Source: a virus. Taken from it: a stretch of 64,000 nucleotides of DNA. The notes below the pieces were generated by a model that was not told where the DNA came from, ran no database searches, and was given only the letters and a program-made list of their open reading frames with translations. Position numbers and translations under genes: made by a program. Numbering within the stretch: the first letter of the stretch is position 1; each line of letters begins with the position of its first letter. The stretch covers positions 32,001-96,000 of IMG/VR virus record IMGVR_UViG_3300037518_000322. One strand, given 5' to 3'. Shown here piece after piece: positions 25,397-63,714 of this stretch.

Positions 25397-25492
25397 CGCT
25401 GCGTTTCCGTTTACACGTGTAACACTTTCGTCTCTCCTTCCGCTGGTCAAGGTGGGGCGTCAGCCCCGTATGACTACAACGGAGAGGTATCC

Positions 25493-25702
25493 ATGTTCAC
25501 GAAGCGGCTCTTTGCTGTCACCGCCCTGGCGGCATCTGCCCTGTTCGGTTTCTCTGGTGCGGCTGTGGCCACCGACCTGCCCAATGACAACTGGTCCTGT
25601 CAGAACCCGGCGGGCAACGAGGTCATGGGCGAGTGCAACGGCGTACCGCTGGACGTCGTCAACCCGGGCGGCAACACGCCTCCGGCGTGGCAGGGCAGGT
25701 AG
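25493..25702 (+). CDS. small secreted peptide
   Basis: GGAGAGG RBS; signal peptide ending AVA; mature part has 2 Cys. Confidence 0.65.
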   Translation: MFTKRLFAVTALAASALFGFSGAAVATDLPNDNWSCQNPAGNEVMGECNGVPLDVVNPGGNTPPAWQGR

Positions 25703-25782
25703 CCTCGCTGGGGCCTGGTTCAGCTCATGTAGACTGGACCGTCCACAACAGTTGAGGCGTGGCAGGTGCCCCCGGTTGTCGC

Positions 25783-26088
25783 TTATGCGGCGGCCGGGGG
25801 CGCTTTTTTCGTTGTGCCACCCATCTGCTCGTAGAGCTCGATGAAGTCGCTGGCCTCGTAGACGCGGGCGTAGCGGCCGGGGTGTCCCTGTGGTGAGGTG
25901 CGGCGCTTGCCGACGGGGGTGAGGTGGAAGCGGGCGAGGATGCGGAGCTTGGTCATGATGGCTTGGACGGGCAGGCTCTGTGGGTCGTTCGGCAGGGGGC
26001 CGAGGTAGTGGGCGGCGTCGGCGACGGTCCACAGGGTGTCGCCGTCCTCGATGACGGGCAGTTCTTGGGAGGTCCAGCCGCGTGTCAT
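25783..26088 (-). CDS. putative DNA-binding (HTH) protein
   Basis: LWTVADAAHYL...RVYEASDF; ATG coupled to the upstream stop. Confidence 0.55.
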   Translation of the reverse strand: MTRGWTSQELPVIEDGDTLWTVADAAHYLGPLPNDPQSLPVQAIMTKLRILARFHLTPVGKRRTSPQGHPGRYARVYEASDFIELYEQMGGTTKKAPPAAA

Positions 26089-26714
26089 GCTGCCGCCTCC
26101 ATTTCGTCCCAGCGGAAGGCGAGCTGGTCGTCGATGAGGGTGAACTGTACTGCCCAGCGGGGGCGTTGTCCGTCGTCTGTCTTGCAGTAGGGGTTGACGC
26201 AGACGGCCTGTCCCGTCGGGGGGTTCCACCGCATGGTGTCCCGCTTGCAGTAGGGGCAGCGGGCTTCGCCTTCGCCGGGCTGGCGTGGTAGGCGGTGGAG
26301 GCCGTTCTGGGGGTTGAAGACGGTGTCGGCGCGTCGGGTCCAGGTGGCGATGTAGCTGAGGACACCGAGGACGGTGACGGTGTCGCTGGTTGTGCACAGC
26401 TTGACGACGGAGTCGATGGCGTAGCGGGTGTTGGTGCTGGAGGATCCGCGTCGTTTCGGGTATCCGCCGGTGAGGCGTTCTTTGAGGTGGGATTCGAGGC
26501 GGCGTATCTCGGTATGGAATTCGAGTGTCAACTCGGCGGCGACGGAATTCCAGGGAATGGGTGTGGTGGAGCGGCGGTGTTGTGTGATGCGTTCTTGTCC
26601 ACTTGAGGTAGACTGCCGGTGTGGGATTTCGAGTTCGAGGGCGCAGTACAGGCGCCATGCGTGCTGGGCGCTGCCATTGAGGCGCGCGTGGAGGCTCCCC
26701 GGCTCATGGATCAC
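26085..26714 (-). CDS. Zn-ribbon protein, possible late transcription regulator
   Basis: CPYC...CVNPYC. The start is uncertain (26714 or 26747) and the regulator role is inferred from position only. Confidence 0.55.
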   Translation of the reverse strand: MIHEPGSLHARLNGSAQHAWRLYCALELEIPHRQSTSSGQERITQHRRSTTPIPWNSVAAELTLEFHTEIRRLESHLKERLTGGYPKRRGSSSTNTRYAIDSVVKLCTTSDTVTVLGVLSYIATWTRRADTVFNPQNGLHRLPRQPGEGEARCPYCKRDTMRWNPPTGQAVCVNPYCKTDDGQRPRWAVQFTLIDDQLAFRWDEMEAAA

Positions 26715-26745
26715 TTGGTGATTGTAACCACTAATTGAACAGCGC

Positions 26746-26785
26746 AAGCCCCCGCTTCCGTCTTTTGACGGGGCGGGGGCTTTTT
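26746..26785. terminator. intrinsic terminator hairpin
   Basis: AAGCCCCCGCTTCCGTC-TTTT-GACGGGGCGGGGGCTTTTT. Confidence 0.7.
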
Positions 26786-26804
26786 ACTGTCGTGTGTTGT
26801 TACG

Positions 26805-27203
26805 TCATATCGTGTTCTGGCCGCGTGAGATTTTTTCTGCTTTCACGAGGAGGTCGGTGAACTCTTTCTTCTTCCTGTCCTCTTCTTCGATGATGCGCTT
26901 GGTGGTCTCCTCGTTGCGGGCCAGGAGCGCGTCCTGGCTGGTCTCGCCTTCGCCGTCGCCTTCGACTTCCTCTATCCAGGTCTGGGTGACGTGGCGGATG
27001 ACGCGGCGCTTCTCCTCGGGGTACTCCTTCACGCGGTACGCTTGGGTGCGTGTGAGTCTGTCCCGGTCGTCGTCCATCCCGCCGAGGTGGATCCAGCGCC
27101 CTTCCTCGTCCTGGTACTGGATGTAGAAGGTGTCCTCCTGCTCGACCAGGGCGCCCGGCGGGAAATCCTGCTGCCTGACGGGCCAGTCGCTGGCATCTGA
27201 CAT
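26805..27203 (-). CDS. hypothetical protein
   Basis: MSDASDWPV... with upstream AGAGGGG RBS. Confidence 0.6.
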   Translation of the reverse strand: MSDASDWPVRQQDFPPGALVEQEDTFYIQYQDEEGRWIHLGGMDDDRDRLTRTQAYRVKEYPEEKRRVIRHVTQTWIEEVEGDGEGETSQDALLARNEETTKRIIEEEDRKKKEFTDLLVKAEKISRGQNTI

Positions 27204-27226
27204 GGGAACCTGAACCCCTCTGTGTC

Positions 27227-27502
27227 TCACTTCAAGGCTTCTACGGTCTCTGCGTCCTTCGTGGAGGCTTCCTCCCGCGCTTCGTCTGCCTGCCACATCC
27301 GGTAGTTCCGTATGCTGAAAACCACGTGCATCAGGTTTGTCGGGATGAAGCCGTACTGCTTCGTGATCACATTGTATGCAATGCATAGCAGTGAGCCGAA
27401 GATCGCCACTAGGAACGCGTTCTTCAGCTTCTTCCCCAGCATCCACTCACAGGCAAACGAGACTACTGTCAAAACCCAGGGTGCCCACTGAACGATCTCC
27501 AC
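27227..27502 (-). CDS. PnuC-like small membrane protein
   Basis: Three hydrophobic helices; WMLGKK...TKQYGF...RNYRMW pattern; GGAAGG RBS. Confidence 0.55.
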   Translation of the reverse strand: MEIVQWAPWVLTVVSFACEWMLGKKLKNAFLVAIFGSLLCIAYNVITKQYGFIPTNLMHVVFSIRNYRMWQADEAREEASTKDAETVEALK

Positions 27503-27527
27503 AAAAACCTTCCGTACCTGTACCGAG

Positions 27528-27602
27528 TAGGGAGCGTGGGACTCGAACCCACAAACCACGATTTTTGAGATCGTGAGCTTTACCAATTAGCGTTAGCTCC
27601 CC
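27528..27602 (-). tRNA. tRNA-Leu(CAA), short variable arm
   Basis: Cloverleaf GGGGAGC...ACGAT-CT-CAA-AA-ATCGT...GTGGG-TTCGAGT-CCCAC-GCTCCCT-A. Confidence 0.85.
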
Positions 27603-27676
27603 GCGACTGATCCCCACACCCCAGGCTCCATGGGGGGATCAGTCTTGGATCCGCATTCCCCAAAACGAAGATCCCG

Positions 27677-27749
27677 TGCACACGGAGGGATTTGAACCCC
27701 CAACATCCTGATCCTGAATCAGGCGCCTCTGCCATTGGGCCACGCGTGC
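27677..27749 (-). tRNA. tRNA-Leu(CAG), short variable arm
   Basis: Cloverleaf GCACGCG...CCTGA-TT-CAG-GA-TCAGG...GGGGG-TTCAAAT-CCCTC-CGTGTGC-A. Confidence 0.85.
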
Positions 27750-27800
27750 TCGTCCATCCGCAGGGCTTGACCGAACGGATAGACTCTCCACTTGAGGATC

Positions 27801-27830
27801 AATCTACTGATCCCCTATTCTCCCTGTCAA
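27801..27830 (-). promoter_or_regulatory. HrdB/sigma70-like promoter for the Leu tRNAs
   Basis: TTGACA-N18-TAGATT on the - strand. Confidence 0.6.
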
Positions 27831-27852
27831 CGCACCACAAAATGGTTTGTAT

Positions 27853-28122
27853 TCAGGTTATGAGCTCCGGTGGTTCCTCGCCGGACGTAAGCCGTCCGGC
27901 GAGGAACCTGTGCGGATCCTCCCCGCCTGCCACCGGAACTACCTCCGCAGACTGTGCGGCCTGGGACCGGTGAGCCGCCTTCCGCTCATCGAAGTCCCAG
28001 AACCCGTGCTCCTCGGTGATCCGGCGGGCGATCTCCCGCACGGCTCCCCGTCCTACACGGCACTGACCCCGTGTCAGCTGATCCGCCAGTCGGTCCACTT
28101 CTGTCCGCAGGTGTGCGTGCAT
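27853..28122 (-). CDS. hypothetical protein
   Basis: MHAHLRTEVDRL... preceded by GACAAGGAAGG. Confidence 0.55.
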   Translation of the reverse strand: MHAHLRTEVDRLADQLTRGQCRVGRGAVREIARRITEEHGFWDFDERKAAHRSQAAQSAEVVPVAGGEDPHRFLAGRLTSGEEPPELIT

Positions 28123-28181
28123 CCGTGTACCTTCCTTGTCGTTGCGGGCTGGGCATACCTGAACTGTCCGGCCCGTGTTCT

Positions 28182-29861
28182 TCAGTTGCCCTGGCTTACC
28201 TGCCAGGGCCAAGCGCCCCGTGATCCACCCTCCAGGAGAGGGATCATCTTGAACGCTTGATCCGTGAGGCCGCCGAGCGTGAAGCGGGCGTTGCTCCCGC
28301 TTGGCATGGCGGCTGCGGTGTACCCGGCGAAGTTCCACATGAACACCGGGACATTGAGGGGGATGAGTGCGTCCACGGACGTGTGCGTCACCTGACCCCA
28401 GCCGCCCGCCGTGTTCGAGGGCAGGTAGCCGGGCCTGGTCTGCTCGTCGGTGAGGATGATGACGCGGTCGTGGTTGCTGTAGTGCTTCCTGACCGCCGAG
28501 GGGATGTCCGTCCCCCAGTCCTTGCCGAAGGACTCGACGAGAGGCAGGACGCTGGTGCCCTTTCGGACCGGCATTTCCCGTGACCCTCTGTGGAACTCGA
28601 CAAGGGTCGGGTTCTTGGCGCGCACGGCCAGTGCGGCGCCGAAGACGGCCGCCTGGTCTGCACGGGAGATGTTGCTGATCTTGGGCCTGGGGAACAGGTG
28701 GTCGTACTCGGGGAACATCGACGGTGAGCGGTCGACCAGGATCAGCGTGCGGCCATCGAGGGACGGCACGTTGGCCAGCGAGTGGTTGAGTGCCTGCTCC
28801 AGTGGATACGCCCAGCGCAGCGACCCGGCGTCCTTCGTGGCGCGGTGCGCGGCGAGGAAGCGGAAGGGGAACTGCTTCGACTTGGCGATCTCGACAGGGT
28901 CGGTCAGCCGGTTGATGACCTGCTGGGCGACGGCGTCGGGGACACCGGCCTGGTCGAAGTTCCTCAGGTTGCGGAGCTGGGCCATCACGCCCATGGACGG
29001 GATCATCGCTTCCCAGACCCCGGTCTTGTGCACACCGAGGGAACCTGCCAGGGAAAGGGCGTCCTCCCACGTCATACCCGCGCTCTTCAGCGCAGTGGGA
29101 CTGCGCAGCAGCGAAGGGGCTTTGGCGACGTTCTTCCGGAAGCTGTAGTTCTCACTGATCATGGTCAGCGACTCGGGGATGCGCGCCTCGGCGGGGTGGT
29201 GACGGCGGTCGAGGGCGTACTGGAACAGGTCACCCTGCCACGGCTTGTCCAGGTCCGGCGCCGCGTGCACGATGTTGAGGACGTCGCCGAAGCGGTAGGC
29301 GTGGCTGTCTGTGTCGTACTTCAGCAGCGCCCGCGCGTTGTACAGGCGGCGTACGGCGTCGGCGACGCCACGCTTGACGGGCTTGGGGATCCTGCGTCCG
29401 TACAATGAGGTCCAGTAGGCGAGGATCTCGCCGGGCTCGTCGGCGCGCTGGCACACGAGGTTGATGATCTTCCGGTTGAAGCCGTTGTCCGACATCCCGG
29501 CGGCGAGGCGTTCGTGGACGAAGTCGACGGCGATCATGTGCGCGGCAGTGCGGATGCTGCCCGGACCGCGCAGCCACGTGGTGAACTCGACAGCCCACCG
29601 GGAGTCTTCGGCTGCGATCTGTCCGACGAGTTCACGCAGGCGGTCGTCGCGGTCGGCGCCCTTCTCGTAGAAGTCGTCCTTCCCGTCCTGGAGAGCGCCA
29701 GCGGCCCGGAGGTAGATCTCACCCTTTGCGGTACGTGTCCACCCGGACGCACCCTCGAACGTGCGGGTGTCCGGCGTCTTGGACACCGTGGCGATCGGGC
29801 TGGTTGCCTGCGCAACCGGCGGCTGTGCCCGGTGGCTGCGGCGGCTGTTGAATCGCGACAC
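28182..29861 (-). CDS. rsr: Ro60/Rsr TROVE-domain RNA-binding protein with vWA domain
   Basis: Motifs QRADEPGEILAY, LLKYD, MTWED, LRNLRN, QFPFRFLAA; vWA MIDAS DRSPSM, GTD and ILTDEQ; adjacent Y-RNA-like genes. Confidence 0.92.
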   Translation of the reverse strand: MSRFNSRRSHRAQPPVAQATSPIATVSKTPDTRTFEGASGWTRTAKGEIYLRAAGALQDGKDDFYEKGADRDDRLRELVGQIAAEDSRWAVEFTTWLRGPGSIRTAAHMIAVDFVHERLAAGMSDNGFNRKIINLVCQRADEPGEILAYWTSLYGRRIPKPVKRGVADAVRRLYNARALLKYDTDSHAYRFGDVLNIVHAAPDLDKPWQGDLFQYALDRRHHPAEARIPESLTMISENYSFRKNVAKAPSLLRSPTALKSAGMTWEDALSLAGSLGVHKTGVWEAMIPSMGVMAQLRNLRNFDQAGVPDAVAQQVINRLTDPVEIAKSKQFPFRFLAAHRATKDAGSLRWAYPLEQALNHSLANVPSLDGRTLILVDRSPSMFPEYDHLFPRPKISNISRADQAAVFGAALAVRAKNPTLVEFHRGSREMPVRKGTSVLPLVESFGKDWGTDIPSAVRKHYSNHDRVIILTDEQTRPGYLPSNTAGGWGQVTHTSVDALIPLNVPVFMWNFAGYTAAAMPSGSNARFTLGGLTDQAFKMIPLLEGGSRGAWPWQVSQGN

Positions 29862-29906
29862 GTTTGTCCTTCCTTGTCAGTTCGCACCAGCAGGACTGGT
29901 GGTCAG

Positions 29907-29995
29907 GGGAACTGGCGGGAATCGAACCCACTTCCCTTTGATGCCATCTTCGGGTATCACCAAGCCGCCGAGATGATCAGGTCTCGGCCAGTTCC
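29907..29995 (-). ncRNA. tRNA-like RNA with non-canonical D and anticodon arms
   Basis: Acceptor GGAACTG/CAGTTCC and T-arm GTGGG-TTCGATT-CCCGC, but a 6-bp D-like stem and an extended central stem. Confidence 0.55.
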
Positions 29996-30008
29996 ATGTC
30001 AGTTCCCG

Positions 30009-30082
30009 TGGGGCCTGAGGGATTTGAACCCCCGACCTCCTGGTTATCAGCCGGGCGCTCTACCAAGCTGAGCTAAGGCCCC
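30009..30082 (-). tRNA. tRNA-Ile(GAT)
   Basis: GGGGCCT-TAGCTCAGCTTGGTAGAGC-G-CCCGG-CT-GAT-AA-CCAGG...TTCAAAT...AGGCCCC-A; one mismatch in the anticodon stem. Confidence 0.88.
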
Positions 30083-30306
30083 GTGTGCTCTTTCCAGTCT
30101 TCGGCAAAGACTTGCCAGTGGGTCAGCTCGAACAGGGCCGGTGTTCCGTCGTTCAGTACGGCGACGAAATGCTGTCCGTACAGGCCGTCGGGGTCCGATA
30201 GCCGGATGTGGTGGTACTCGTGCGGGACGTGCGCAAACGTCCCCCACACACCGCGTTGTACTGCACCACCAGCCTTCATGATTCTGAAGGCTTCCCCGAA
30301 GTCCAT
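30073..30306 (-). CDS. DUF2829/Tad2-like small protein
   Basis: N-terminus MDFGEAFRIMKAGGAVQRGVW and C-terminus VFAEDW. Confidence 0.6.
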   Translation of the reverse strand: MDFGEAFRIMKAGGAVQRGVWGTFAHVPHEYHHIRLSDPDGLYGQHFVAVLNDGTPALFELTHWQVFAEDWKEHTGP

Positions 30307-30420
30307 CGTGTTCCTCTCGTTCAGTTTGTGCCCGGCCCGGGGTTCAACCCCAGCCGGAACCACGGCGTTTGCGCGGGCCAGGCATGACCCATCGTTGTAC
30401 AGGCGATGGGTGGTTCAACG

Positions 30421-30493
30421 TAGGGCCTGAGGGACTCGAACCCCCAACCAGCAGATCCGTAATCTGCTGCTCTGTCCTTTGAGCTAAGGCCCC
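30421..30493 (-). tRNA. tRNA-Arg(ACG)
   Basis: GGGGCCT...GCAGA-TT-ACG-GA-TCTGC...GGGGG-TTCGAGT-CCCTC-AGGCCCT-A. Confidence 0.9.
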
Positions 30494-30694
30494 TTGCCGT
30501 CGAGCCATGTCCTCCGCCTTCGCCGTCTCCGGGCGCGCGAGGCATCGACGTTCTCGGGGAGGTGGATTTTTCTGCCGGAGCAGCCCCGTACCTCTTTGTG
30601 TCCCATCCCGGGAGTGTCAGGACTCCCGGGTTTCCCACGCTGTCCCGAGCACTGGGTCATTGCGTGGACTGGCGGTGGGGCCGCCAGAACCGTG

Positions 30695-30799
30695 CACGCA
30701 GAGGTCGAGGTGGTAGTGGTTTCCGGTTGTTCAGACCGGGAGGTTCCTCCGGTGACGGAGGATGGTGAACGAAGTACCCACTGCCGTCGCACCTGCGTG
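30695..30799 (-). ncRNA. Y RNA-like (no tRNA domain)
   Basis: Terminal stem CACGCAGGTGCGAC...CTCGACCTCTGCGTG with Ro-binding-type bulge; internal GTACTTC. Confidence 0.7.
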
Positions 30800-30808
30800 A
30801 AGGTAAAG

Positions 30809-30939
30809 CTGTGCCTGAGGTCAAGGTCGATCACACCGTTTCGTACCAGCGCTCTACCAAGCTGAGCTACTGCGGCGGGATTTGAACCCGCGACCTCTGG
30901 TTCCCATTGAAGCAAGTGTGGTCTGCGCACCAGGCACAG
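30809..30939 (-). ncRNA. YrlA-like Y RNA with permuted tRNA-like domain
   Basis: Stem CTGTGCCTGGTGCGCAG...CTTGACCTCAGGCACAG encloses a T-arm (GCGGG-TTCAAAT-CCCGC) that precedes the D-arm (TAGCTCAGCTTGGTAGAGC). Confidence 0.85.
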
Positions 30940-30947
30940 TAAGTTAT

Positions 30948-31027
30948 GCGCGCCTGAGATCAAAGTTGGCGTTCCGGAGTGATTTCACCAAAAGAAGCAT
31001 CCGGGGTGCCATTCGCACCAGGCGCAC
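30948..31027 (-). ncRNA. Y RNA-like (short, no tRNA domain)
   Basis: Stem GTGCGCCTGGTGCGAA...TTTGATCTCAGGCGCGC; internal ATGCTTC. Confidence 0.75.
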
Positions 31028-31043
31028 GCTGCACGGGAGTTGT

Positions 31044-31131
31044 GGTGACCCTGCTTCCCCGCAGGGGGATGACTTCGTGTCCGTGGAACCTACCCATGCC
31101 TCAGATCCACTGCGTCGTCATCCGGATCACC
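31044..31131. ncRNA. unclassified multi-stem structured RNA
   Basis: Nested pairings GGTGA/TCACC, GGATGAC/GTCATCC, GTGGA/TCCAC and CCTGC/GCAGG within the RNA cluster. Confidence 0.4.
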
Positions 31132-31163
31132 GAATTTTTCAGCACTCTATTGAGTTGTTGAAG

Positions 31164-31235
31164 GGTGAAAGACGGGACTCGAACCCGCGCCATTCCCGGC
31201 GAAACCCGGGGCTCTGCCGCTGAGCTACATTCACC
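31164..31235 (-). ncRNA. tRNA-like RNA with aberrant 6-nt anticodon loop (pseudo-tRNA)
   Basis: Canonical D (GCTC-AGCGGCA-GAGC) and T (GCGGG-TTCGAGT-CCCGT) arms; anticodon arm CCCGG-GTTTCG-CCGGG. Confidence 0.65.
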
Positions 31236-31239
31236 AAGA

Positions 31240-31376
31240 CTGCCCGAGATCAAGTCGGAGACGGAAACAAGTTGCTCTACCAACTGAGCTACCGAGGAGT
31301 TCCCTCCCCAGGCGGGACTTGAACCCGCGACCAACCCATTAATAGTGGAAGTACCCGTTTCCTGCGCACCGGGCAG
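31240..31376 (-). ncRNA. YrlA-like Y RNA with permuted tRNA-like domain
   Basis: Stem CTGCCCGGTGCGCAG...CTTGATCTCGGGCAG; T-arm, then closed acceptor CTGGGGAG-GGAA-CTCCTCGG, then D-arm. Confidence 0.88.
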
Positions 31377-31463
31377 ATTGGGTGGCCGTCCATTTGCAGG
31401 TGGGCGGCCACCCTCGAATGTGCACCCACGCCAGCAAGCGCTCACTCGAAGTTGTGTGTTGAG

Positions 31464-31534
31464 CGGCAGAGATCTAAGTCGGCGTCGGATGGTTTTCTTT
31501 GAGAGAGAAGTATCCGAGGTCTTCGCACCTGCCG
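31464..31534 (-). ncRNA. Y RNA-like (short, no tRNA domain)
   Basis: Stem CGGCAGGTGCGAAG...CTTAGATCTCTGCCG; internal ATACTTC. Confidence 0.72.
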
Positions 31535-31547
31535 TTCGGGTGCGTTC

Positions 31548-31575
31548 ACACTATCACCACTTTGGGTGGCGTCAA
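31548..31575 (-). promoter_or_regulatory. HrdB/sigma70-like promoter of the Y RNA/Ro operon
   Basis: TTGACG-N16-TAGTGT just upstream of the first Y RNA. Confidence 0.6.
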
Positions 31576-31588
31576 CGCGTTTTTGACA

Positions 31589-31807
31589 TCAGTTGCGTGC
31601 CAGGGTTTCAGTTGGGTGAGTGGCGTCCGGATCTTCTGTGGTTCCGCGTGGGATGTACAGGGGGACGGGGACGGTGGATTCGGTGTCCTCGCGTACTTCT
31701 GTCATCTCCGGGTTTACGTTTTGCTTTCCTCTGTCCGAGGGGAGGATGCTGATGAGGAGGGTTGTGATCCAGAGTGCTGGGCCGGATCTTCGCCTGTGTT
31801 TGCCCAT
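31589..31807 (-). CDS. small protein with hydrophobic segment
   Basis: Preceded by two GACAAGGAA motifs. Confidence 0.5.
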   Translation of the reverse strand: MGKHRRRSGPALWITTLLISILPSDRGKQNVNPEMTEVREDTESTVPVPLYIPRGTTEDPDATHPTETLARN

Positions 31808-31875
31808 GCGTGGTTTTCCTTGTCACGCTTCCTTGTCGGGTTCTGCTGTGGAATTTACTTGCGGCGGTGCAACCT

Positions 31876-32229
31876 TTAGGCGGCTAGTGCGTCGTCTTCG
31901 CCGGTGTGCTGGGTCTGGGCGGTTGTGTCGTTCTTCTGGTGCAGTGGTCCGCCGTGGTGCCGCTGGTAGGTGGTGTACCATTCAACTACCTCGCGGTAGT
32001 TGAAAACAGGATTTCCTCGGCCGCCGTTGGCGCTGCCCTGCATGGCGGAGGTTTCTGGGAATCTGTTGTAGTGGCGGTTCGTCCACCACTTGTAGACGAG
32101 TTGCCGACTGATCGGACGCCGACGATCGGGGTAGCGCTTGTTGAGCAGTTTGGCTATCCCTGCGAACCCTCCGTGGGCTCTTTTCTTGTCGTCAACAACC
32201 GGTTCAGCCGGATGGTGGTTTCCGGTCAT
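31876..32229 (-). CDS. putative DNA-binding protein (AlpA/Xis-like HTH)
   Basis: GFAGIAKLL...ISRQLVYKW...FP...FNYREVVEW. Confidence 0.55.
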   Translation of the reverse strand: MTGNHHPAEPVVDDKKRAHGGFAGIAKLLNKRYPDRRRPISRQLVYKWWTNRHYNRFPETSAMQGSANGGRGNPVFNYREVVEWYTTYQRHHGGPLHQKNDTTAQTQHTGEDDALAA

Positions 32230-58264: not shown

Positions 58265-58684
58265 TCAGGGGTTGGGCATCTTGACCAGCGAGTCATCTGA
58301 CTTGCGGTGGTAGTGCTTGGTGCCCTTCTCGCAGGCTGGGCAGTCCGTGTAGCCATCCACCGACTTCGGGCTCATGATGTCGATCACGCCACCGTGCTCG
58401 ACCTCCTCGTAGGGGTCGACCTCGCGCACCGACCAGACGACACCCGGCCCGTGGACGTCCCGGCCCTTGCGCATCTGCTCCCAACGGGAGTACAGGTCAC
58501 CGGCCTTGGTGTGCAGGAGCATCTCGTCGTTGAAGTCGAGCAGCTCGTCCAGCTTCTTGCACTCATCGCCAGCCGAGTTCGTGGCCGTACCCATGGTGCT
58601 AAACCGACACGTCCATGTCTGCGGTGTACAGAGCAACTGGTGGATCTGCTGTCGAGGTGGGGTGATCACCTTCGGGACACTCAC
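58265..58684 (-). CDS. hypothetical protein coupled to parA (not ParB-like)
   Basis: GTGA overlap with the parA stop; no GxRR Arg patch; C-terminal CPAC..H.H. Confidence 0.6.
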   Translation of the reverse strand: MSVPKVITPPRQQIHQLLCTPQTWTCRFSTMGTATNSAGDECKKLDELLDFNDEMLLHTKAGDLYSRWEQMRKGRDVHGPGVVWSVREVDPYEEVEHGGVIDIMSPKSVDGYTDCPACEKGTKHYHRKSDDSLVKMPNP

Positions 58685-59493
58685 TTCGCGCCCCTCTCCG
58701 CCAGCTCCTTCGCGGCCTCCTTGTAGGCCAGGGCGCCGTTGTTGGACGGCTCGTAGGTGATGACCGTCTGCTGATGGCTGGGCGCCTCGCTCACCCGGAC
58801 CGACCGGGGGATCTGAGTCTTCAAGACCTGCTCCGGGAAGTACTTACGCACCTCGTCGGCGACCTGCTTGGACAGGCTGGTCGAGCCGTTGAACATGGTG
58901 AGCAGCACCGTGGAGATCCGCAGCCGGTCGTTCAGCTCCTCCTGGACCACCAGCTCGATGGTCTTCATGAGCTGCCCGACACCCTCCAGTGCGTAGTACT
59001 CGCACTGGATCGGGATGAGCACCTCGTCACCGGCGGTCATGGCGTTGATGGTGAGCAGGCCGAGCGAGGGCGGGCAGTCGATGAGGATGTAGTCGAATCC
59101 CATGCTGGACTGGCCGATCGCCCTGGCCAGGCGCCCCTCGCGGGACACCATGGACACCAGCTCGATCTCCGCACCGGCGAGATCGATCGTGGCGGGCGCG
59201 CAGTACAGGTTTGGGATCCTGGGGCACTTCTGGATGGCGTCGTCCAGCGGCTTGCTGTCGATCAGCACGTCGTAGATGGAGAGGATGCCCTCGCTGTGAT
59301 GGTCGATGCCCAGCGCAGTGGAGGCATTGCCCTGAGGATCGAGGTCGACCACCAGGACCCGGCTGCCGTGCAGAGCGAGGGAGGCGGCAAGGTTGACCGT
59401 GGTCGTGGTCTTGCCCACCCCGCCCTTCTGGTTGGCGACCACGATCACGCGGGTCTGGTCCGGGAGGGGGAAGCTGCTGATGCTGGTCGTCAT
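58681..59493 (-). CDS. parA: chromosomal-type ParA/Soj ATPase
   Basis: ANQKGGVGKTTT, DLDPQGNAS, LAGAEIEL, IDCPPSLGLLT, PIQCEYYALEG, IPRSVRVSEAPS. Confidence 0.93.
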   Translation of the reverse strand: MTTSISSFPLPDQTRVIVVANQKGGVGKTTTTVNLAASLALHGSRVLVVDLDPQGNASTALGIDHHSEGILSIYDVLIDSKPLDDAIQKCPRIPNLYCAPATIDLAGAEIELVSMVSREGRLARAIGQSSMGFDYILIDCPPSLGLLTINAMTAGDEVLIPIQCEYYALEGVGQLMKTIELVVQEELNDRLRISTVLLTMFNGSTSLSKQVADEVRKYFPEQVLKTQIPRSVRVSEAPSHQQTVITYEPSNNGALAYKEAAKELAERGAK

Positions 59494-59513
59494 CGTGTCT
59501 CCTTCGTGTGACG

Positions 59514-59675
59514 TCACTTGGTCGTGCCGGTGAGGAAGTTCCAGAACTCCTCGGGGTCTCCCTGGTCGCCTTCGTACTCGCGCCAGGCCACCCGGATGGT
59601 GGCCTGGAGCATGGCGACCTGGACAACCGGCATGTCGGCGGGCGGCTTGATGACGTTGGAGAGCGGTTCGTACAT
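59514..59675 (-). CDS. small hypothetical protein (may start at GTG 59720)
   Basis: GAAGG RBS before ATG 59675; the alternative GTGA-coupled start would include a parS site. Confidence 0.5.
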   Translation of the reverse strand: MYEPLSNVIKPPADMPVVQVAMLQATIRVAWREYEGDQGDPEEFWNFLTGTTK

Positions 59676-59716
59676 GGTCAACTGCCTTCGGTGCGTCGAT
59701 GTTTCACGTGGAACAT

Positions 59717-60031
59717 TCACCCGCCCTGGGCTTCGCGCGCCTGCTTACGCTCGGCGTAGATCTGTTGGGCGGTGGTGCTGCCTTGCACAAAGGTCTGCAA
59801 GTACTTCCGTGCTGCTGGCGTCTTGTAGTTCATCTGGTGGGTCTTGAAGATGTCGAGCGCCAACTCGACGGCCTCTGTGGACATCTCGGTGACCCACGAG
59901 TAATCCCGCCTGTGCACCTTGTGCAGTGCAACGACGAGGGACTTCAATTGCCGGTCCCGTACGGCCACGCCGGGGGCGGTCGCGTTGAGCAGCACTTGCA
60001 TCTGTCCGGGGGTCAGGTCGATCTCTTCCAT
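59717..60031 (-). CDS. hypothetical protein
   Basis: AAGGAG RBS; flanked by parS sites. Confidence 0.6.
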   Translation of the reverse strand: MEEIDLTPGQMQVLLNATAPGVAVRDRQLKSLVVALHKVHRRDYSWVTEMSTEAVELALDIFKTHQMNYKTPAARKYLQTFVQGSTTAQQIYAERKQAREAQGG

Positions 60032-60074
60032 GGGGTCTCCTTAGGTGGATGTTTCACGTGGAACATTGCGGGGG

Positions 60075-60350
60075 TCAGCCCTTTGGGCCGCTACGTGCAG
60101 CCTCGATCGTCCACTCATGTGCGAGCAGGGACCAGGCCGACTCGGTCGTGGTGTAAAAGGATCCGTCAGGGCCCTTGATCCTGCACGACAGCGGTCCGTC
60201 GTACGACATGGCGACGAGTCCTCGTGCCACAACGACGGGCAGGCCATCGTCCCCGCCGTCGGCGTCGTATCCCCACACTTTCACGGGCTGCGGCTTCGTC
60301 ACGTCACGCGCGATGCTGCGCTTGCGTGGGGTGCTCATGCTGTATGGCAT
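60075..60350 (-). CDS. hypothetical protein
   Basis: AAAGGA RBS; flanked by parS sites. Confidence 0.55.
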   Translation of the reverse strand: MPYSMSTPRKRSIARDVTKPQPVKVWGYDADGGDDGLPVVVARGLVAMSYDGPLSCRIKGPDGSFYTTTESAWSLLAHEWTIEAARSGPKG

Positions 60351-60405
60351 CTCGGGCTGTCCTTTCAGTGATGGTGGATGTTTCACGTGGAACATGTCGC
60401 CAGGG

Positions 60406-61599
60406 TCAGAAGTCCCAGCCATCCTCGCGGGACTGCTGGCGCTCCCGCTCTGCGATCTCACGGGACTTGGTGGTGCCGAGGTTGGCGCGGCGGATGTCCT
60501 TGTGACTGGACGGGTCGCCGTGCTGCGGGTCGACGGGGATGATCTGCGTGCCGGGCTCGTAGTCCACGTCGTCGAGCTTGTCGAGCTTGGTCCAGTATGG
60601 GTCGAGCCACTTCACATCCCACTTGGACTTGCGGGGCCCGAACCAGATCGTCTTGTAGTGGCCGCACCGTTGCTGTGGGTCCTGCTCGGCGCCGGTGGGG
60701 ATGGACACCCCGTCACGGATCCGGCCAGCCATCCGCTCCCGGCGGGCATGGAGCTTGGGCCCGATGCGCCAGCCGACCTGAATGTAGAACGGGTCACGGG
60801 AGGGAGCCTGACGCTGTTTCCCCCTGGCCGGTGCGGGCGGTGGTTCCTGGATGTCCGCGTTGCTACAGCACAGGTAGGTGAGCAGCGACAGTGCGCCGGG
60901 GATGACCTGCTTGATGATGCGTCGTTGCTGCTTGGACCCGTCGCTCACGCCATGGAACTCGTTGGTGTGTGCGATGACATCGTCGAAGGTGAAGGGGCCA
61001 GTCATGGATGGCAGTGGGAAGACCGGCGTGAGGACATCGTGATACGTGGGCGTCGCCGGGTTCGTGTCGATCCACGGAACGATGCATAGCCCCTCCGACC
61101 GTGGGTCTGTCGTCGGGCAGAAGGCCCTGCCGATGCGGCCGGTCAGGAAGATAGCCCTGACCAGTCCTTGATCTCCGTCCGAGAAGTTCATCGGCCATGC
61201 ACGCGGCAGGGGAATCATGGGGCTGATGTAGGGGAGCCGGGAGAACAGCTCGCCGGGCAGCTTCCCCTTCAGGTCCGTCCGGTACAGGCTGTTGGCCATC
61301 TCCAGGTGCACGTCGAAGGCCACCCGGCCCTGACGCCGCCACAGATCGATGACGGCGTGCGATGCCGCCCGGTCGAGCAGGGTGGTCAGCTTCTCCGTGC
61401 CGTACGTACGCTCGAAGGCCTTGTTCCAGGTCGGAGTAATGCCCCGCCGCATCCTGACCGCATTCCCGATGCCGTCGTGCGGCCACGTCTTCAAGTCGGC
61501 GGCCATCATGTTGTCGAGGTCGAGGATCCGCTCGACCGCGTCGTTCGTCCCCGAAGCACGCCGCATCCTCGGCGGCATGCCCTTGCTCTTCTTCCCCAT
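60406..61599 (-). CDS. AcrVA2/FinQ-like protein
   Basis: WR...F....L..T.L.G.LP..L..RLP; LSLLTYLC; VGWRIG; R.GHY..IWFGPR..KWL.P.W. Confidence 0.55.
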   Translation of the reverse strand: MGKKSKGMPPRMRRASGTNDAVERILDLDNMMAADLKTWPHDGIGNAVRMRRGITPTWNKAFERTYGTEKLTTLLDRAASHAVIDLWRRQGRVAFDVHLEMANSLYRTDLKGKLPGELFSRLPYISPMIPLPRAWPMNFSDGDQGLVRAIFLTGRIGRAFCPTTDPRSEGLCIVPWIDTNPATPTYHDVLTPVFPLPSMTGPFTFDDVIAHTNEFHGVSDGSKQQRRIIKQVIPGALSLLTYLCCSNADIQEPPPAPARGKQRQAPSRDPFYIQVGWRIGPKLHARRERMAGRIRDGVSIPTGAEQDPQQRCGHYKTIWFGPRKSKWDVKWLDPYWTKLDKLDDVDYEPGTQIIPVDPQHGDPSSHKDIRRANLGTTKSREIAERERQQSREDGWDF

Positions 61600-61601
61600 G
61601 A

Positions 61602-62093
61602 CTACTCCCCTGTCTCCCCTCTACCGGTCGATGTTTCACGTGGAACATTGACGACCGGACCGCCGTCGGGCACGACACGCACATCGAAGTTCCCGAAGGA
61701 GACGGTGTCGTTCTTGAATGCGGCAGTGAGCTGCGCCCGCACCCAGTCCACGGCTTCCTGAGCATCACGTGCCTGCACGGTGCGTTGAGCAGTGCGCAGT
61801 GCACCACTGTTCACCTGGTAGATCACGTCCACTTGGTGCGTGAACTTGTCCTCGACGGACGGCGATGTTTCACGTGGAACATCGACCGTCTCGTCCTTGA
61901 TGATGATCCGCTGCGTGCGCTGGCCGCTGGCGAACTGCGACGTGATGAGCAGGTCGCCGGTGTCCGGGTCGTTGTCGATGGACAGGATCTCACCGCCGGA
62001 GGTATCGGGGTGGGCGGACAGCTCCCGCCTGATCTTGTTCTGCATCTCGCGGAATGCGTCAACGCTCATGCGTAGCTCCTTGTAGCTGGTCAC
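61602..62093 (-). CDS. hypothetical protein containing two in-frame parS sites (VPRETS)
   Basis: ORF track; VPRETS occurs twice. Confidence 0.6.
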   Translation of the reverse strand: MTSYKELRMSVDAFREMQNKIRRELSAHPDTSGGEILSIDNDPDTGDLLITSQFASGQRTQRIIIKDETVDVPRETSPSVEDKFTHQVDVIYQVNSGALRTAQRTVQARDAQEAVDWVRAQLTAAFKNDTVSFGNFDVRVVPDGGPVVNVPRETSTGRGETGE

Positions 62094-62257
62094 TGGGTCT
62101 CCGATGTTTCACGTGGAACACCGCTGTCGCCTTCATCGTCTTCGTCGTCATCGAACCAGCTCGGCTCGGTCCCCCAAGCACCGCAGTACATGCAGCGGTA
62201 CTTGGGCTGGATGTGATGGTCCTCGGCCCCGACGTGACCCTCTCGTTCGCAGCTCAC
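62090..62257 (-). CDS. small Cys/His protein ending in VPRETS
   Basis: 55 aa VSCEREGH...CMYCG...GVPRETSETQ; GTGA-coupled at both ends. Confidence 0.55.
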   Translation of the reverse strand: MSCEREGHVGAEDHHIQPKYRCMYCGAWGTEPSWFDDDEDDEGDSGVPRETSETQ

Positions 62258-62457
62258 GTCTCGGCCTCGGTGGATGTTTCACGTGGAACATCGGTCTCGG
62301 TCTTCCGCATAACCCAGACCACGTGGCCACAGACCCCGCCGGTGAACAGGTAGGCGTGCCCCGGGGCGCACTCCTGGACGACGAGGTCTTCGGTCTCCCC
62401 ACAGTCATCGACCGGGCAGACGGTGTAACGCAGCTCGGGTGGGATCACATCACTCAT
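62254..62457 (-). CDS. small Zn-ribbon protein ending in VPRETS
   Basis: CPVDDC...CGH; coupled to both neighbours. Confidence 0.55.
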   Translation of the reverse strand: MSDVIPPELRYTVCPVDDCGETEDLVVQECAPGHAYLFTGGVCGHVVWVMRKTETDVPRETSTEAET

Positions 62458-62956
62458 CACTGGCCGCCGATGTTTCACGTGGAACATTGAGCAGCGGGAT
62501 CCCCCGCTCGGTGCGGAACTCGTCGATGGCCTTCTCGCAGCAGACGGGCTCACCGGCGATCGAGTGCGCGTCCTGGTTCACCAACGCGTCGGTGGCCTCG
62601 GTGGCGGTGAGCTCCTCCCACAGCAGGTAGCAGTGTGAGCAGGTGTGCTCCTCGTCGCAGACGATCTCGGCCTTGATGACGTTGCGATGACGGAGCATCC
62701 CCGTCCTGATGACCGCGCAAGCCTTGCGGTAGTCGCCCTCGATGTCGCGGCTGGCGAGGTGGTCGCCCATTGACACGAAGCCGAAGTCCCCGAGGCGACG
62801 TGGGTGAATGACCAGGTCGAACGTCGGGCCCCACAGGTTTCCCTCAAGGGGATCGCCCCATTGGTCCCTGAAGCCGAAGCTGGCGATGGACACATGGGTC
62901 TGCATGGGATTGAACGTGGCGACGACGCGCCAGTTGTCACGGGTGGTCTTCTTCAT
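62450..62956 (-). CDS. hypothetical protein ending in VPRETS
   Basis: GACAAGGAAG upstream; CSHC...CC. Confidence 0.6.
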   Translation of the reverse strand: MKKTTRDNWRVVATFNPMQTHVSIASFGFRDQWGDPLEGNLWGPTFDLVIHPRRLGDFGFVSMGDHLASRDIEGDYRKACAVIRTGMLRHRNVIKAEIVCDEEHTCSHCYLLWEELTATEATDALVNQDAHSIAGEPVCCEKAIDEFRTERGIPLLNVPRETSAASDE

Positions 62957-62991
62957 GGTGTGCTTCCTTGTCGATGTTTCACGTGGAACAT

Positions 62992-63369
62992 TCAGTCGTC
63001 CACGATCTTCAGCCAGTCGTTGATGAGCCGGTCCTCGAAGCCCGCCCGATCGCGCCGGGACTCCCGCGCGTCGCTCTCGCTGAAGGCCGCGACGACCTGC
63101 TTCAGGGCATCAAGCCCTCCGGGATGGATGTCGACGGTCTGGAAGAAGAGCTGCACCTGCGACCGGAGGGTCCGGAGATCCTTCAGCTCGGTCGGGTACT
63201 TCAGCTCGTCGAGTGCGGACCGGCGGCCGATGGCCTTGCCCATGGCGAAGATGCGGTCGAATTCTCCACGACACTCCTGCTCGGTGGCCTCCTCGTCGAG
63301 GATCAGCCTGCTGGCCTGGTCGTACAGATGCTCAGTCTTGAGGTAGTCGGGGACACTGTTGTCGGTCAT
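62992..63369 (-). CDS. hypothetical protein
   Basis: GACAAGGAA upstream; flanked by parS sites. Confidence 0.6.
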   Translation of the reverse strand: MTDNSVPDYLKTEHLYDQASRLILDEEATEQECRGEFDRIFAMGKAIGRRSALDELKYPTELKDLRTLRSQVQLFFQTVDIHPGGLDALKQVVAAFSESDARESRRDRAGFEDRLINDWLKIVDD

Positions 63370-63408
63370 GGGTTTCCTTGTCGGGTGATGTTTCACGTGG
63401 AACATTGC

Positions 63409-63654
63409 TCAGTCGTGCGGGCCGATGTAAGTCACGCTGGTGATGTCGTAGCCTTCGGTCTCGTCCTCCTGTGAGATGTTCACGGGGTCGTTGGCTTCCT
63501 TCGACAACTCGCTGTCGCTGTCCTGCATCTGCTGCTCGGCCCACTGCTGTAGGTCGCCGTCCAGGACGTCCTGTGGTACGTCCACCACGACGTTGATCCG
63601 TTCCGTGATGGTCTTCGTGTTTTCGCCCGTGATCTCGATCTCGGTGCGGGGCAT
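63409..63654 (-). CDS. acidic hypothetical protein
   Basis: AAGGAGG RBS; flanked by parS sites. Confidence 0.55.
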   Translation of the reverse strand: MPRTEIEITGENTKTITERINVVVDVPQDVLDGDLQQWAEQQMQDSDSELSKEANDPVNISQEDETEGYDITSVTYIGPHD

Positions 63655-63714
63655 TACTCCTCCTTCGGATGGCGATGTTTCACGTGGAACATAGTTCGAA
63701 CGGGTGTTCAATTC

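What the first reader, a model, noticed from the sequence alone, without database searches (positions are those of the whole stretch)
58681..63691. Phage carries 11 perfect host-type parS sites next to a chromosomal-type ParA, with no ParB in view: candidate host-ParB hijack/sponge system
Seen: 11 identical GA-TGTTTCACGTGGAACA copies in 4 kb, in one orientation, irregularly spaced (170-1253 bp), immediately upstream of parA. Neither gene flanking parA resembles ParB. Established: this 16-mer matches the chromosomal parS consensus bound by Spo0J/ParB in Firmicutes and Actinobacteria, where ParB-parS loads SMC and anchors or segregates oriC. Known phage and plasmid partition cassettes normally encode their own ParB and use a different centromere. 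Inference: the phage recruits HOST ParB, either to position or segregate its DNA along hyphae or into spores, or to titrate ParB/SMC away from the chromosome.
Basis: partly seen in the sequence, partly recalled or inferred. Interest (0 to 1): 0.93.

Follow-up and report, generated by a model that had tools for sequence, protein, structure and literature searches.

The report
Host centromere-site array on an actinophage
An uncultured 117-kb phage of actinobacteria carries 24 copies of the bacterial chromosome's centromere sequence (parS) at the junctions of its early genes, plus an altered copy of the host's ParA motor but no ParB, so it most likely makes the host's own ParB protein sit on phage DNA.

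Summary
The window has 11 exact copies of the 16-mer, all in one orientation (0.04 expected by chance). The whole 116,662-bp virus record has 23 exact copies plus one palindromic variant. On the gene strand the motif reads TGTTCCACGTGAAACA, which is letter for letter the Bacillus subtilis parS. Each copy sits between one gene's stop codon and the next gene's ribosome-binding site.

Three related 102-112-kb phages carry 15, 20 and 32 copies. None of the four encodes a ParB. Three encode a ParA that forms a single clade, about 70% identical to Streptomyces chromosomal ParA. In all three, the arginine needed for non-specific DNA binding by B. subtilis Soj (R189) is replaced.

Whole actinobacterial genomes hold at most about 13 such sites. 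No phage helix-turn-helix protein has a recognition helix as invariant as the site.

My best reading (0.6) is that host ParB loads on these sites. What follows from that (carriage or spore entrapment, ParB titration, gating of early genes) is inference.

The idea of a phage using host ParB is already known from phi29, which has five sites. The scale, the gene-junction placement and the altered ParA are new. Earlier agents of this scan reported the same array in two sister phages. I found no paper describing it.

The parts
59700..59715 (-). parS copy 1, upstream of the 55-aa gene and parA
   Evidence: Exact match. On the gene strand it reads TGTTCCACGTGAAACA and is followed by a Shine-Dalgarno (SD) sequence and ATG.
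60050..60065 (-). parS copy 2
   Evidence: It is followed by 'taaggagacccc' and ATG.
60379..60394 (-). parS copy 3
61632..61647 (-). parS copy 4, upstream of the 397-aa gene
61866..61881 (-). parS copy 5, inside a 163-aa open frame, where it is read as VPRETS
62105..62120 (-). parS copy 6
62275..62290 (-). parS copy 7
62471..62486 (-). parS copy 8
62975..62990 (-). parS copy 9
63389..63404 (-). parS copy 10
63676..63691 (-). parS copy 11. Thirteen more copies lie beyond the window, at record positions 105761-112396.
58684..59493 (-). parA: a Soj-type deviant Walker ATPase of 270 aa counted from the ATG that follows an SD. It is host-derived, lacks the N-terminal extension of host ParAs, and has Ser where BsSoj has R189.
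   Evidence: AAA_31 at E 2.9e-61. 66-71% identical to actinobacterial chromosomal ParA. Residue mapping. Forms a clade with the ParAs of G001 and G003.
59517..59675 (-). 53-aa acidic protein (55 aa if the upstream TTG start is used). It is found only in the three ParA-bearing phages and lies next to parA in two of them.
   Evidence: No family hit.
58265..58684 (-). 139-aa ORF that overlaps the parA stop codon, in the position where a ParB gene would normally sit. It has no known family and no homologue in the three relatives.
59717..63654 (-). String of small early genes (81-397 aa, almost all without a known family), each preceded by one parS copy.

Best explanation
The repeats are genuine parS sites. 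After the phage DNA enters an actinobacterial host (probably of the Streptomycetaceae), the host's own ParB most likely recognises each of the 24 sites, closes into CTP-bound clamps and spreads over the roughly 20 kb of early genes. The phage DNA would then carry a ParB complex as large as, or larger than, the one at the host's replication origin.

Shown:
- the sites are present and their sequence is that of parS;
- they are conserved in four related phages;
- none of the four encodes a ParB;
- the ParA is host-derived and altered.

Inferred: host ParB binds these sites.

Further inferred, in order of my preference:
(a) The complex couples the phage genome to the host segregation apparatus, so that it is carried along hyphae and into spores or daughter compartments, as phi29 does with Spo0J. 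The tyrosine recombinase and ParA found in three of the four phages fit a carried, non-lytic state.
(b) Because each site lies between a stop codon and the next ribosome-binding site, bound ParB also damps early-gene expression while ParB is plentiful and phage copies are few.
(c) At high phage copy number the sites drain ParB from the chromosome.

The phage ParA has lost a nucleoid-binding arginine. It more likely modulates ParB or host ParA than acts as a classical nucleoid-riding motor.
For: - The 16-mer is identical to the B. subtilis parS (PMC4333373, passage) and fits TGTTNCACGTGAAACA (PMC7022226, passage). The same review states that ParBs of several species bind both half-sites, GTTCCAC and GTTTCAC.
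- There are 91 sites in the four related phages G000-G003 (24, 32, 15, 20). Of these, 88 have the perfect core GTTCCACGTGAAAC and 3 have GTTTCACGTGAAAC, a change at the one degenerate position of the consensus. Only 2 other single-mismatch copies exist.
- The site is invariant although orthologous proteins of these phages are only 30-87% identical. This points to a conserved, host-encoded reader.
- No ParB was found. PF02195 gave a best E of 0.018, in a vWA-like ORF of G000, and nothing in G001-G003. PF17762 gave only sub-threshold hits. A profile built from 69 host ParBs, run against all six frames, gave best E-values of 0.26-0.9.
- The helix-turn-helix proteins shared by the phages (a 162-aa XRE-type protein and small GerE-type proteins) have variable recognition helices.
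- The C-type site is a natural chromosomal parS. It occurs in 155 of 401 Actinomycetes genomes, at most 5 times per genome and in both orientations. It makes up 7 of 13, 5 of 7 and 4 of 7 sites in the three Streptomycetaceae genomes whose prophage capsid proteins are closest to this phage's.
- ParA is 66-71% identical to chromosomal ParA.
- Precedent: phi29 (PMC2731898, passages).
- Precedent for ParB at intergenic parS repressing the adjacent genes: P. aeruginosa parS3 and parS4 (PMC7022226, passage).
Against: - No binding data exist.
- 85 of 88 C-type copies point the same way relative to the genes. A symmetric ParB dimer should not care about orientation.
- Conservation extends beyond the 14-16 bp that host sites conserve, to (cg)AT-core-AT(cg) (host flanks vary).
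- In most Streptomyces parAB neighbourhoods the T-type site dominates (11 of 11 sites in G006).
- G002 keeps the array without ParA, so ParA is not needed for whatever the array does.
- In all three phage ParAs the BsSoj R189 equivalent is S, A or S, whereas it is R in 77 of the 77 host ParAs in which the motif was found, out of 80 loci. This does not fit a standard partition motor.
- B. subtilis Spo0J loss did not change expression of genes next to parS (PMC7022226, passage). Gating of genes by ParB is therefore not a general property.
- G000 is estimated to be only 92% complete.
Confidence: 0.6

Rival explanations
1. The motif is the operator of an unidentified phage-encoded dimeric regulator. 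In this reading it is a 'stoperator'-like network that blocks transcription through the early genes, and it resembles parS either because it descends from a captured parS or because the regulator competes with ParB.
For: - The sites lie in short gene junctions, and 85 of 88 are in one orientation relative to transcription. This matches what I recall of mycobacteriophage L5 stoperators.
- Conservation spans an 18-22-bp palindrome, wider than host sites conserve.
- The phages encode several helix-turn-helix proteins: XRE, GerE and GntR types.
- Many early genes have no known family.
Against: - The only DNA-binding proteins I found shared by all four phages have variable recognition helices, while the site is identical in all four.
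- The match to parS is 16 of 16.
- The only recurrent variant falls at the consensus N position.
- Three reversed copies in G002 sit at gene junctions.
- Whatever else binds, host ParB would be expected to bind these sites too.
Confidence: 0.2
2. The motif acts in RNA or as a phage promoter. It would be either a start site or processing site repeated before each gene, or a hairpin with a conserved C-A mismatch read by an RNase or an RNA-binding protein.
For: - It is strand-specific, always lies in transcribed spacers just 5' of an SD sequence, and its one asymmetric base is invariant.
- The phage is rich in RNA-handling genes: TROVE/Ro60 and PNKP.
- The consensus scan found no sigma-70-like promoters and no minus-strand terminators within the array.
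Against: - The palindromic symmetry and the identity to parS would be coincidences.
- Some copies are followed directly by a terminator-like hairpin or by no gene at all (G001 46290; G000 105762 and 112382).
- Nothing is conserved upstream of the motif.
- No Rfam family matched.
- No T7-type RNA polymerase was found, although that search's control was silent.
- Three copies in G002 are antisense to their genes.
Confidence: 0.08
3. The repeats are mainly recombination 'boundary' sequences. Early-gene cassettes would be swapped between related phages at these sites, and protein binding would be secondary.
For: - Gene content between the sites is highly variable among the four phages, while the sites are identical.
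- Direct orientation would avoid inversions.
- The block of tightly overlapping genes at record 95.7-105.8 kb has no sites.
Against: - 14-18 bp is short for homologous exchange.
- This reading explains neither the palindrome nor the identity to parS.
- I made no test of exchange break-points.
Confidence: 0.05

Closest known systems
Host-type parS sites of Bacillus phages phi29 and Nf (Meijer et al. 2005, as summarised in PMC2731898; I read passages only)
   Same: A phage with no ParB of its own carries sites for the host's chromosomal ParB (Spo0J). The host forms spores, and the sites serve carriage of the phage genome (spore entrapment).
   Different: Phi29 has five sites in a 19-kb genome with terminal protein, and no ParA. 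This phage has 24 sites (15-32 in its relatives), packed at early-gene junctions and almost all in one orientation. Three of the four phages add a host-derived ParA. The host phylum is also different.
Chromosomal ParABS of Streptomyces and other Actinobacteria
   Same: The core site is the same (GTT[T/C]CACGTGAAAC). ParA is 66-71% identical. Sites come in clusters.
   Different: There is no ParB gene. ParA lacks the N-terminal extension and the BsSoj R189-equivalent arginine. The phage has more perfect sites than a whole chromosome: 5-11 per genome, up to 13.
KorB-OB operator network of IncP plasmid RK2 (described in PMC7022226; passage read)
   Same: Many identical palindromic ParB-family sites are spread over a mobile element's genes, so that partition and global gene control are linked.
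   Different: RK2 encodes its own KorB (a ParB) and IncC (a ParA) and uses its own site sequence.
Stoperators of cluster A mycobacteriophages such as L5
   Same: Two to three dozen identical short sites lie in short intergenic gaps and are oriented with transcription.
   Different: Stoperators are asymmetric sites of a phage repressor and occur across the whole genome. Here the site is a near-palindrome identical to parS, is confined to the early arms, and no cognate phage repressor was found.
parABS cassettes of extrachromosomal mycobacteriophage prophages (mentioned in PMC8612146; passage read)
   Same: An actinophage with a ParA and centromere sites. Three of the four phages here also carry a tyrosine recombinase.
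   Different: Those phages encode both ParA and ParB and use their own parS.

Membership tests
Chromosomal parS (ParB/Spo0J binding site) | A 16-bp palindrome matching TGTTNCACGTGAAACA | tested here: met
   23 of the 24 copies in G000 match the consensus 16 of 16 and equal the B. subtilis parS (PMC4333373 and PMC7022226, passages). The remaining copy is the perfect palindrome, which also fits the consensus.
Chromosomal parS (ParB/Spo0J binding site) | Bound by ParB, with CTP-dependent clamp loading | not testable with these tools
   This needs EMSA, ChIP or a cross-linking assay.
Chromosomal parS (ParB/Spo0J binding site) | The same variant is used as parS in actinobacterial chromosomes | tested here: met
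   The C-type core occurs in 155 of 401 Actinomycetes genomes, clustered. It lies beside T-type sites near parAB or mid-chromosome in G007, G009, G010, G493, G532 and G618.
Complete ParABS partition cassette | A cognate ParB (ParB_N plus HTH_ParB) is encoded on the same replicon | tested here: not met
   No hit over the cut-off in any of the four phage records.
Complete ParABS partition cassette | A phage protein carries the ParA-binding peptide [LFI]G[KR]G[LFI] (motif as defined in PMC12704722) | tested here: not met
   The motif occurs in only one frame that my GC-content filter rates as coding-like (a 184-aa ORF in G001). The other nine hits include the 1514-aa G000 ORF in the tail-gene region and frames that do not look coding. 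No hit lies in a gene shared by the four phages.
ParA/Soj (chromosomal, type Ib-like) | AAA_31/CbiA domain with deviant Walker A KGGxxK[ST], plus the Asp residues of Walker A' and B | tested here: met
   (E 2.9e-61). The sequence NQKGGVGKTT is present.
ParA/Soj (chromosomal, type Ib-like) | The basic patch for non-specific DNA binding (BsSoj R189, K201, R215, R218; PMC6393308, passage) | tested here: not met
   The R189 equivalent (TtSoj R182) is S, A and S in the three phage ParAs. The other three positions are kept. Host ParAs have R in 77 of the 77 cases where the motif was found, out of 80 loci.
phi29-type use of host ParB | Host-type parS on a phage that lacks its own ParB | tested here: met
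phi29-type use of host ParB | The phage genome is carried into spores in a ParB-dependent way | not testable with these tools
   The host itself is only inferred. ParA is closest to Streptomyces. The capsid protein is closest to that of Streptomyces phage Dagobah, at 51.5%.
Stoperator-type repressor network | Sites in short intergenic gaps, oriented with transcription | tested here: met
   85 of 88 C-type copies are in sense orientation. 70 of 91 are followed by an SD sequence and a start codon within 46 nt.
Stoperator-type repressor network | A cognate phage-encoded repressor | tested here: inconclusive
   The helix-turn-helix proteins present have variable recognition helices. Proteins of unknown fold are not excluded.

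The most novel reading that the evidence does not exclude
The phage uses the host's ParB clamp as a borrowed global repressor and dormancy switch. One parS stands before almost every early gene. High ParB (as in sporulating hyphae, or when phage copies are few) would keep the early programme shut and move the genome with the chromosomes into spores. Replication of the phage, helped by a ParA that no longer binds the nucleoid, would titrate ParB, switch the early genes on and at the same time disable host chromosome segregation.
Probability: 0.15. Interest if true: 0.9.

Novelty: new variant of a known kind. Interest (0 to 1): 0.68.

Why it matters
If host ParB does load here, these phages place more centromere sites on 20 kb of their DNA than the whole host chromosome carries. 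That would be the largest known case of a virus borrowing the bacterial segregation machinery, and the first in actinobacteria.

It offers a concrete route by which phages could persist in filamentous, spore-forming hosts. It also gives a natural test of whether ParB-CTP clamps can gate transcription. The ParA variant has lost a DNA-binding arginine in all three phages that carry it, which may expose ParA functions that do not need the nucleoid.

The array can be synthesised and tested in Streptomyces venezuelae or S. coelicolor without the uncultured phage itself.

Tried and rejected
- **Close relatives by protein.** The search for related loci in viral contigs, with the 397-aa array protein and with ParA, gave no confirmed relative. 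I found the relatives through the 19-mer DNA pattern instead.
- **Cultured relatives.** Megablast of the region against cultured phages hit only one unrelated 8-kb record, over parA. The portal/protease, primase and capsid searches show no close cultured relative. The best is Streptomyces phage Dagobah, capsid protein 51.5% identical.
- **The weak ParB_N hit in G000.** The hit at record 20761-20850 lies in a vWA-like 374-aa ORF, which I do not count as a ParB. At E up to 0.1, Pfam gave that ORF only faint WD40_Prp19 and VWA_2 matches.
- **HTH_ParB sub-threshold hits.** They fall on the XRE-type 162-aa protein. Its helix reads like the general XRE consensus (my recollection of that consensus) and varies between the phages.
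- **T7-type RNA polymerase.** PF00940 was not found, but the control genomes were silent too. This shows nothing either way.
- **Complex prediction, ParA with the 53-aa neighbour.** No verdict (score 0.01 against a mark of 0.32). This is no evidence either way.
- **The look-up of sequencing runs.** No RNA holder is listed, so RNA ends at the motif could not be examined. Read laying was not used. The one near-complete holder is a sediment metagenome that may be the source sample.
- **Joint capture of parA and its upstream parS.** I looked at whether the phage took parA together with the parS that lies about 95-110 nt upstream of the ParA core in Streptomyces. The flanks are only loosely alike, so I make no claim.
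- **ParA donor.** The ParA tree does not resolve the donor lineage (sister-group support 0.37).
- **Literature search.** It was useless, because 'para' matched 'parasite'.
- **Supplementary files** of papers were not opened.
- **Unpublished genomes.** The tally includes four unpublished genomes (G016, G024, G033, G313), each with one match. No conclusion rests on them.
- **Rows dropped.** In one search, 30 of 91 sites had no upstream ORF that met my filter and were left unclassified. In one search, one of the 91 contexts was too close to a contig end. In one search, ParBs were taken from 69 of the 80 loci, those long enough. The first tree used only 19 host ParAs because of a strict pattern, and one search used 79.

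Full report
**The observation.** One search finds 11 exact copies of TGTTTCACGTGGAACA on the + strand between 59700 and 63691, 170-1253 bp apart. Dinucleotide-preserving shuffles give a mean of 0.04 matches at up to two mismatches. The window is positions 32001-96000 of a 116,662-bp IMG/VR virus record, estimated 92% complete. The whole record has 23 exact copies and one copy of the perfect palindrome TGTTTCACGTGAAACA. All lie on one strand, in two clusters at record positions 91.7-95.7 kb and 105.8-112.4 kb. The genes in this arm lie on the minus strand. On the gene strand the motif therefore reads TGTTCCACGTGAAACA.

**Anatomy.** Printed in gene orientation, nearly every copy lies between the stop codon of one small gene and the Shine-Dalgarno (SD) sequence of the next.
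- Over the 91 sites of the four related phages, 70 have an SD sequence and a start codon 12-41 nt after the core.
- I could assign an upstream ORF for 61 sites. Of these ORFs, 40 stop just before the core (mostly TGA at -5 or -4), 6 use the TGA inside the core, and 15 read through it as VPRETS and stop 15-69 nt later. The other 30 sites were unclassified.
- Conservation covers (c/g)(g/a)AT-GTTCCACGTGAAAC-ATCG, an 18-22-bp near-palindrome with one asymmetric base pair. Nothing further upstream is conserved.
- A few copies are followed by a terminator-like hairpin or by no gene at all.
- In the window's array the consensus scan finds no sigma-70-like promoter and no minus-strand terminator. No Rfam family matches.

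**Is it parS?** The 16-mer is exactly the site in the B. subtilis parB gene (PMC4333373, passage). It is also used as the H. pylori parS oligonucleotide (PMC6393308, passage). The pan-bacterial consensus is TGTTNCACGTGAAACA, and ParBs of several species bind both half-sites, GTTCCAC and GTTTCAC (PMC7022226, passages).

I then compared the phage sites with host chromosomes.
- In 80 actinobacterial parAB neighbourhoods fetched with the phage ParA, 361 sites match GTTNCACGTGNAAC. The great majority are the T-type palindrome, and the flanks outside the 14-mer vary.
- Five whole genomes (Streptomyces, Terrabacter, Actinomadura, Arthrobacter, Kitasatospora) hold 5-11 perfect 14-mers each, of which 0-3 are C-type.
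- Among 401 Actinomycetes genomes, 155 have the C-type core, never more than 5 copies, in both orientations. Four unpublished genomes with one match each are in that tally, and nothing rests on them.
- In the three Streptomycetaceae genomes whose prophage capsid proteins are closest to this phage's (58-59% identical), the C-type makes up 7 of 13, 5 of 7 and 4 of 7 sites.

The phage's variant is therefore a natural actinobacterial parS. The phage carries roughly two to five times as many perfect sites as each of the whole chromosomes sampled.

**Relatives.** A scan of viral contigs with the 19-mer led to three records of similar size. A pattern search in them and my own scan give these counts:
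- G001 (104 kb): 32 sites.
- G002 (102 kb, direct terminal repeats): 15 sites. Two of them are the same site counted twice, because it lies inside the terminal repeat.
- G003 (111.5 kb, direct terminal repeats): 20 sites.

These phages are truly related to G000. Structural and replication proteins are 50-87% identical, while many of the small early genes are not shared.

Across all four genomes, a search allowing up to two mismatches to the 14-mer finds 88 perfect C-type cores and 3 T-type cores. It also finds two other single-mismatch copies (both in G000) and one double mismatch, where about 2 double mismatches are expected by chance. The site is thus under very strong constraint. Its one recurrent variant falls at the degenerate N of the parS consensus.

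Orientation is with the genes in 23 of 23, 32 of 32 and 20 of 20 C-type copies in G000, G001 and G003. In G002 it is 10 of 13, and the three reversed copies still sit at gene junctions.

**No ParB.**
- PF02195 gives only E 0.018 in G000, in a vWA-like ORF, and nothing in G001-G003.
- PF17762 gives only sub-threshold hits, on an XRE-type protein.
- A profile built from 69 Streptomycetaceae-type ParBs and searched against all six frames gives best E-values of 0.26-0.9.
- The ParA-binding peptide motif of ParBs (as defined in PMC12704722) occurs in only one coding-like frame, a 184-aa ORF of G001. No hit lies in a gene shared by the four phages.
- G001-G003 are rated 100% complete, so the absence is not an artefact of a truncated record.

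**Phage DNA-binding candidates.** G000 has four XRE-type proteins, two GntR-type and two GerE-type helix-turn-helix proteins. One 162-aa XRE protein is shared by all four phages, and GerE-type small proteins are found in all four. In both families the recognition helices differ markedly between the phages, while the DNA site is identical. This is an inference against a phage reader, not a proof. Many early proteins have no known family.

**ParA.** The gene at window 58684-59493 (-) matches AAA_31 at E 2.9e-61. It is 66-71% identical to chromosomal ParA of Streptomyces and other actinobacteria. G001 and G003 have orthologues (71% and 68% identical), and G002 has none. The three phage ParAs form one clade (support 0.999, with 79 host sequences), so there was a single capture. 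The donor lineage is not resolved.

Compared with host ParAs, the phage proteins lack the long N-terminal extension. They read FNGST, YNAAT and FNPSI where 77 of 77 host proteins read YD[GAS]RT (the motif was found in 77 of 80 loci). Alignment to T. thermophilus Soj places the lost arginine at TtSoj R182, which is BsSoj R189. This is one of the two arginines shown by mutagenesis to mediate DNA and nucleoid binding (PMC6393308, passage citing Hester and Lutkenhaus 2007). The other three residues of the basic patch and the ATPase motifs are kept. The phage ParA therefore probably still dimerises and meets ParB, but rides the nucleoid poorly or not at all.

**Genes that travel with ParA.** A conserved 53-aa acidic protein is present in G000, G001 and G003 only and lies beside parA in two of them. 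A tyrosine recombinase (PF00589, about 348 aa with a faint SAM-like N-domain) has the same distribution. This hints at a carried, non-lytic state in the three ParA-bearing phages. G002 has neither gene yet keeps the array, so the array has a role that needs no phage ParA.

**Host.** The evidence points to Streptomycetaceae or near relatives.
- ParA similarity is highest to Streptomyces.
- The closest capsid protein among cultured phages is that of Streptomyces phage Dagobah, at 51.5%.
- Capsid homologues at 48-59% identity occur in 12 of 401 Streptomycetaceae genomes.

This is an inference. The G+C content is 64%.

**Mechanism.** The most economical reading is that host ParB nucleates at each site and spreads over the early region. 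The known precedent is phi29, which has five parS sites, with host Spo0J involved in moving the phage genome into the prespore (PMC2731898, passages). Here the scale and the placement suggest more. A ParB complex larger than the chromosomal one could tether phage DNA to the segregation machinery of a hyphal, sporulating host. It could drain ParB from oriC once phage copies multiply. And because every site lies just ahead of a ribosome-binding site, it could damp early genes. ParB bound at the intergenic sites parS3 and parS4 of P. aeruginosa represses the adjacent genes. B. subtilis Spo0J does not have this effect (PMC7022226, passages).

The near-uniform orientation and the extended palindrome are not explained by ParB alone. 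They may reflect copy-and-paste spread of a stop-site-SD module, or a second reader. I hold 'host ParB binds' at about 0.6 and each downstream role at well under that.

**What is known and what is new.** I found no paper describing host-type parS arrays in actinophages (searches; listings and the passages named above were read; supplementary files were not seen). Earlier agents of this scan reported the same array in two sister phages (notes e1-5887422 and e1-6028981, which correspond to my G001 and G002) and smaller arrays in other phages (e1-6035837). I reproduced the counts for the two sister phages independently.

- the four-phage comparison of the site and of candidate readers;
- the finding that the site's one recurrent variant falls at the consensus N position;
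- the C-type-rich chromosomes of the likely host group;
- the single capture of ParA and the loss of its nucleoid-binding arginine in all three phages;
- the shared distribution of ParA, the recombinase and the 53-aa protein.

Noticed in passing
window 61602-62956 (-); also G001 25264-25914: Where the upstream gene does not stop before the site, the site is translated in one frame as VPRETS, so several small proteins end in ...(D/N)VPRETS plus a few residues. In G001 a single open frame of 217 codons runs through four sites.
   Followed up: partly
record 108640-108716 (outside the window; L210 14640-14716), G001 39178, G003 98758: One site is followed by a conserved stretch of about 50 nt containing a strong 10-bp hairpin. 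The hairpin keeps pairing through compensating changes in three phages. It may be a leader or attenuator of the next gene.
   Followed up: no
record 26019-27065 (-) (outside the window; L209 8022-9065): A tyrosine recombinase of about 348 aa is present in G000, G001 and G003 but not in G002. ParA and the 53-aa protein have the same distribution.
   Followed up: partly
window 59517-59675 (-): A conserved 53-aa acidic protein (core ...MP..VAMLQ.TI..AW..Y.GD....E.FWN.L.G) sits next to parA in G000 and G003. It has no known family, and the complex prediction with ParA gave no verdict.
   Followed up: partly
record 95.7-105.8 kb (window 63.7 kb onwards and beyond): Between the two site clusters the genes overlap by 4 nt (ATGA-type coupling) and carry no sites. 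The early arm therefore has two different styles of gene packing.
   Followed up: no
L128 5840-6130 and other Streptomyces parA loci: In Streptomyces a chromosomal parS lies about 95-110 nt upstream of the conserved ParA core, translated as DVSRET. This mirrors the DVPRETS site in front of the phage parA in G001 and G003. It could be a trace of joint capture, but the flanks are too divergent to tell.
   Followed up: partly
window 26000-32000 (-): Pfam finds a TROVE (Ro60) domain protein, a PNKP-type phosphatase, HU, an SNF2 helicase and glycosyltransferases in this arm. Other first-stage notes describe Y RNAs beside the Ro60 gene.
   Followed up: no
record 104640-104653 and 101844-101857 (outside the window): Two decayed copies of the site, each with one core mismatch. 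One is at a gene junction with an SD sequence and ATG. The other is just inside a gene's 5' end.
   Followed up: partly
G002 97661-98217: Two oppositely oriented sites in G002 carry longer palindromic flanks (gtgcat-core-atgcac), near the terminal repeat. This may be a control or origin region.
   Followed up: no
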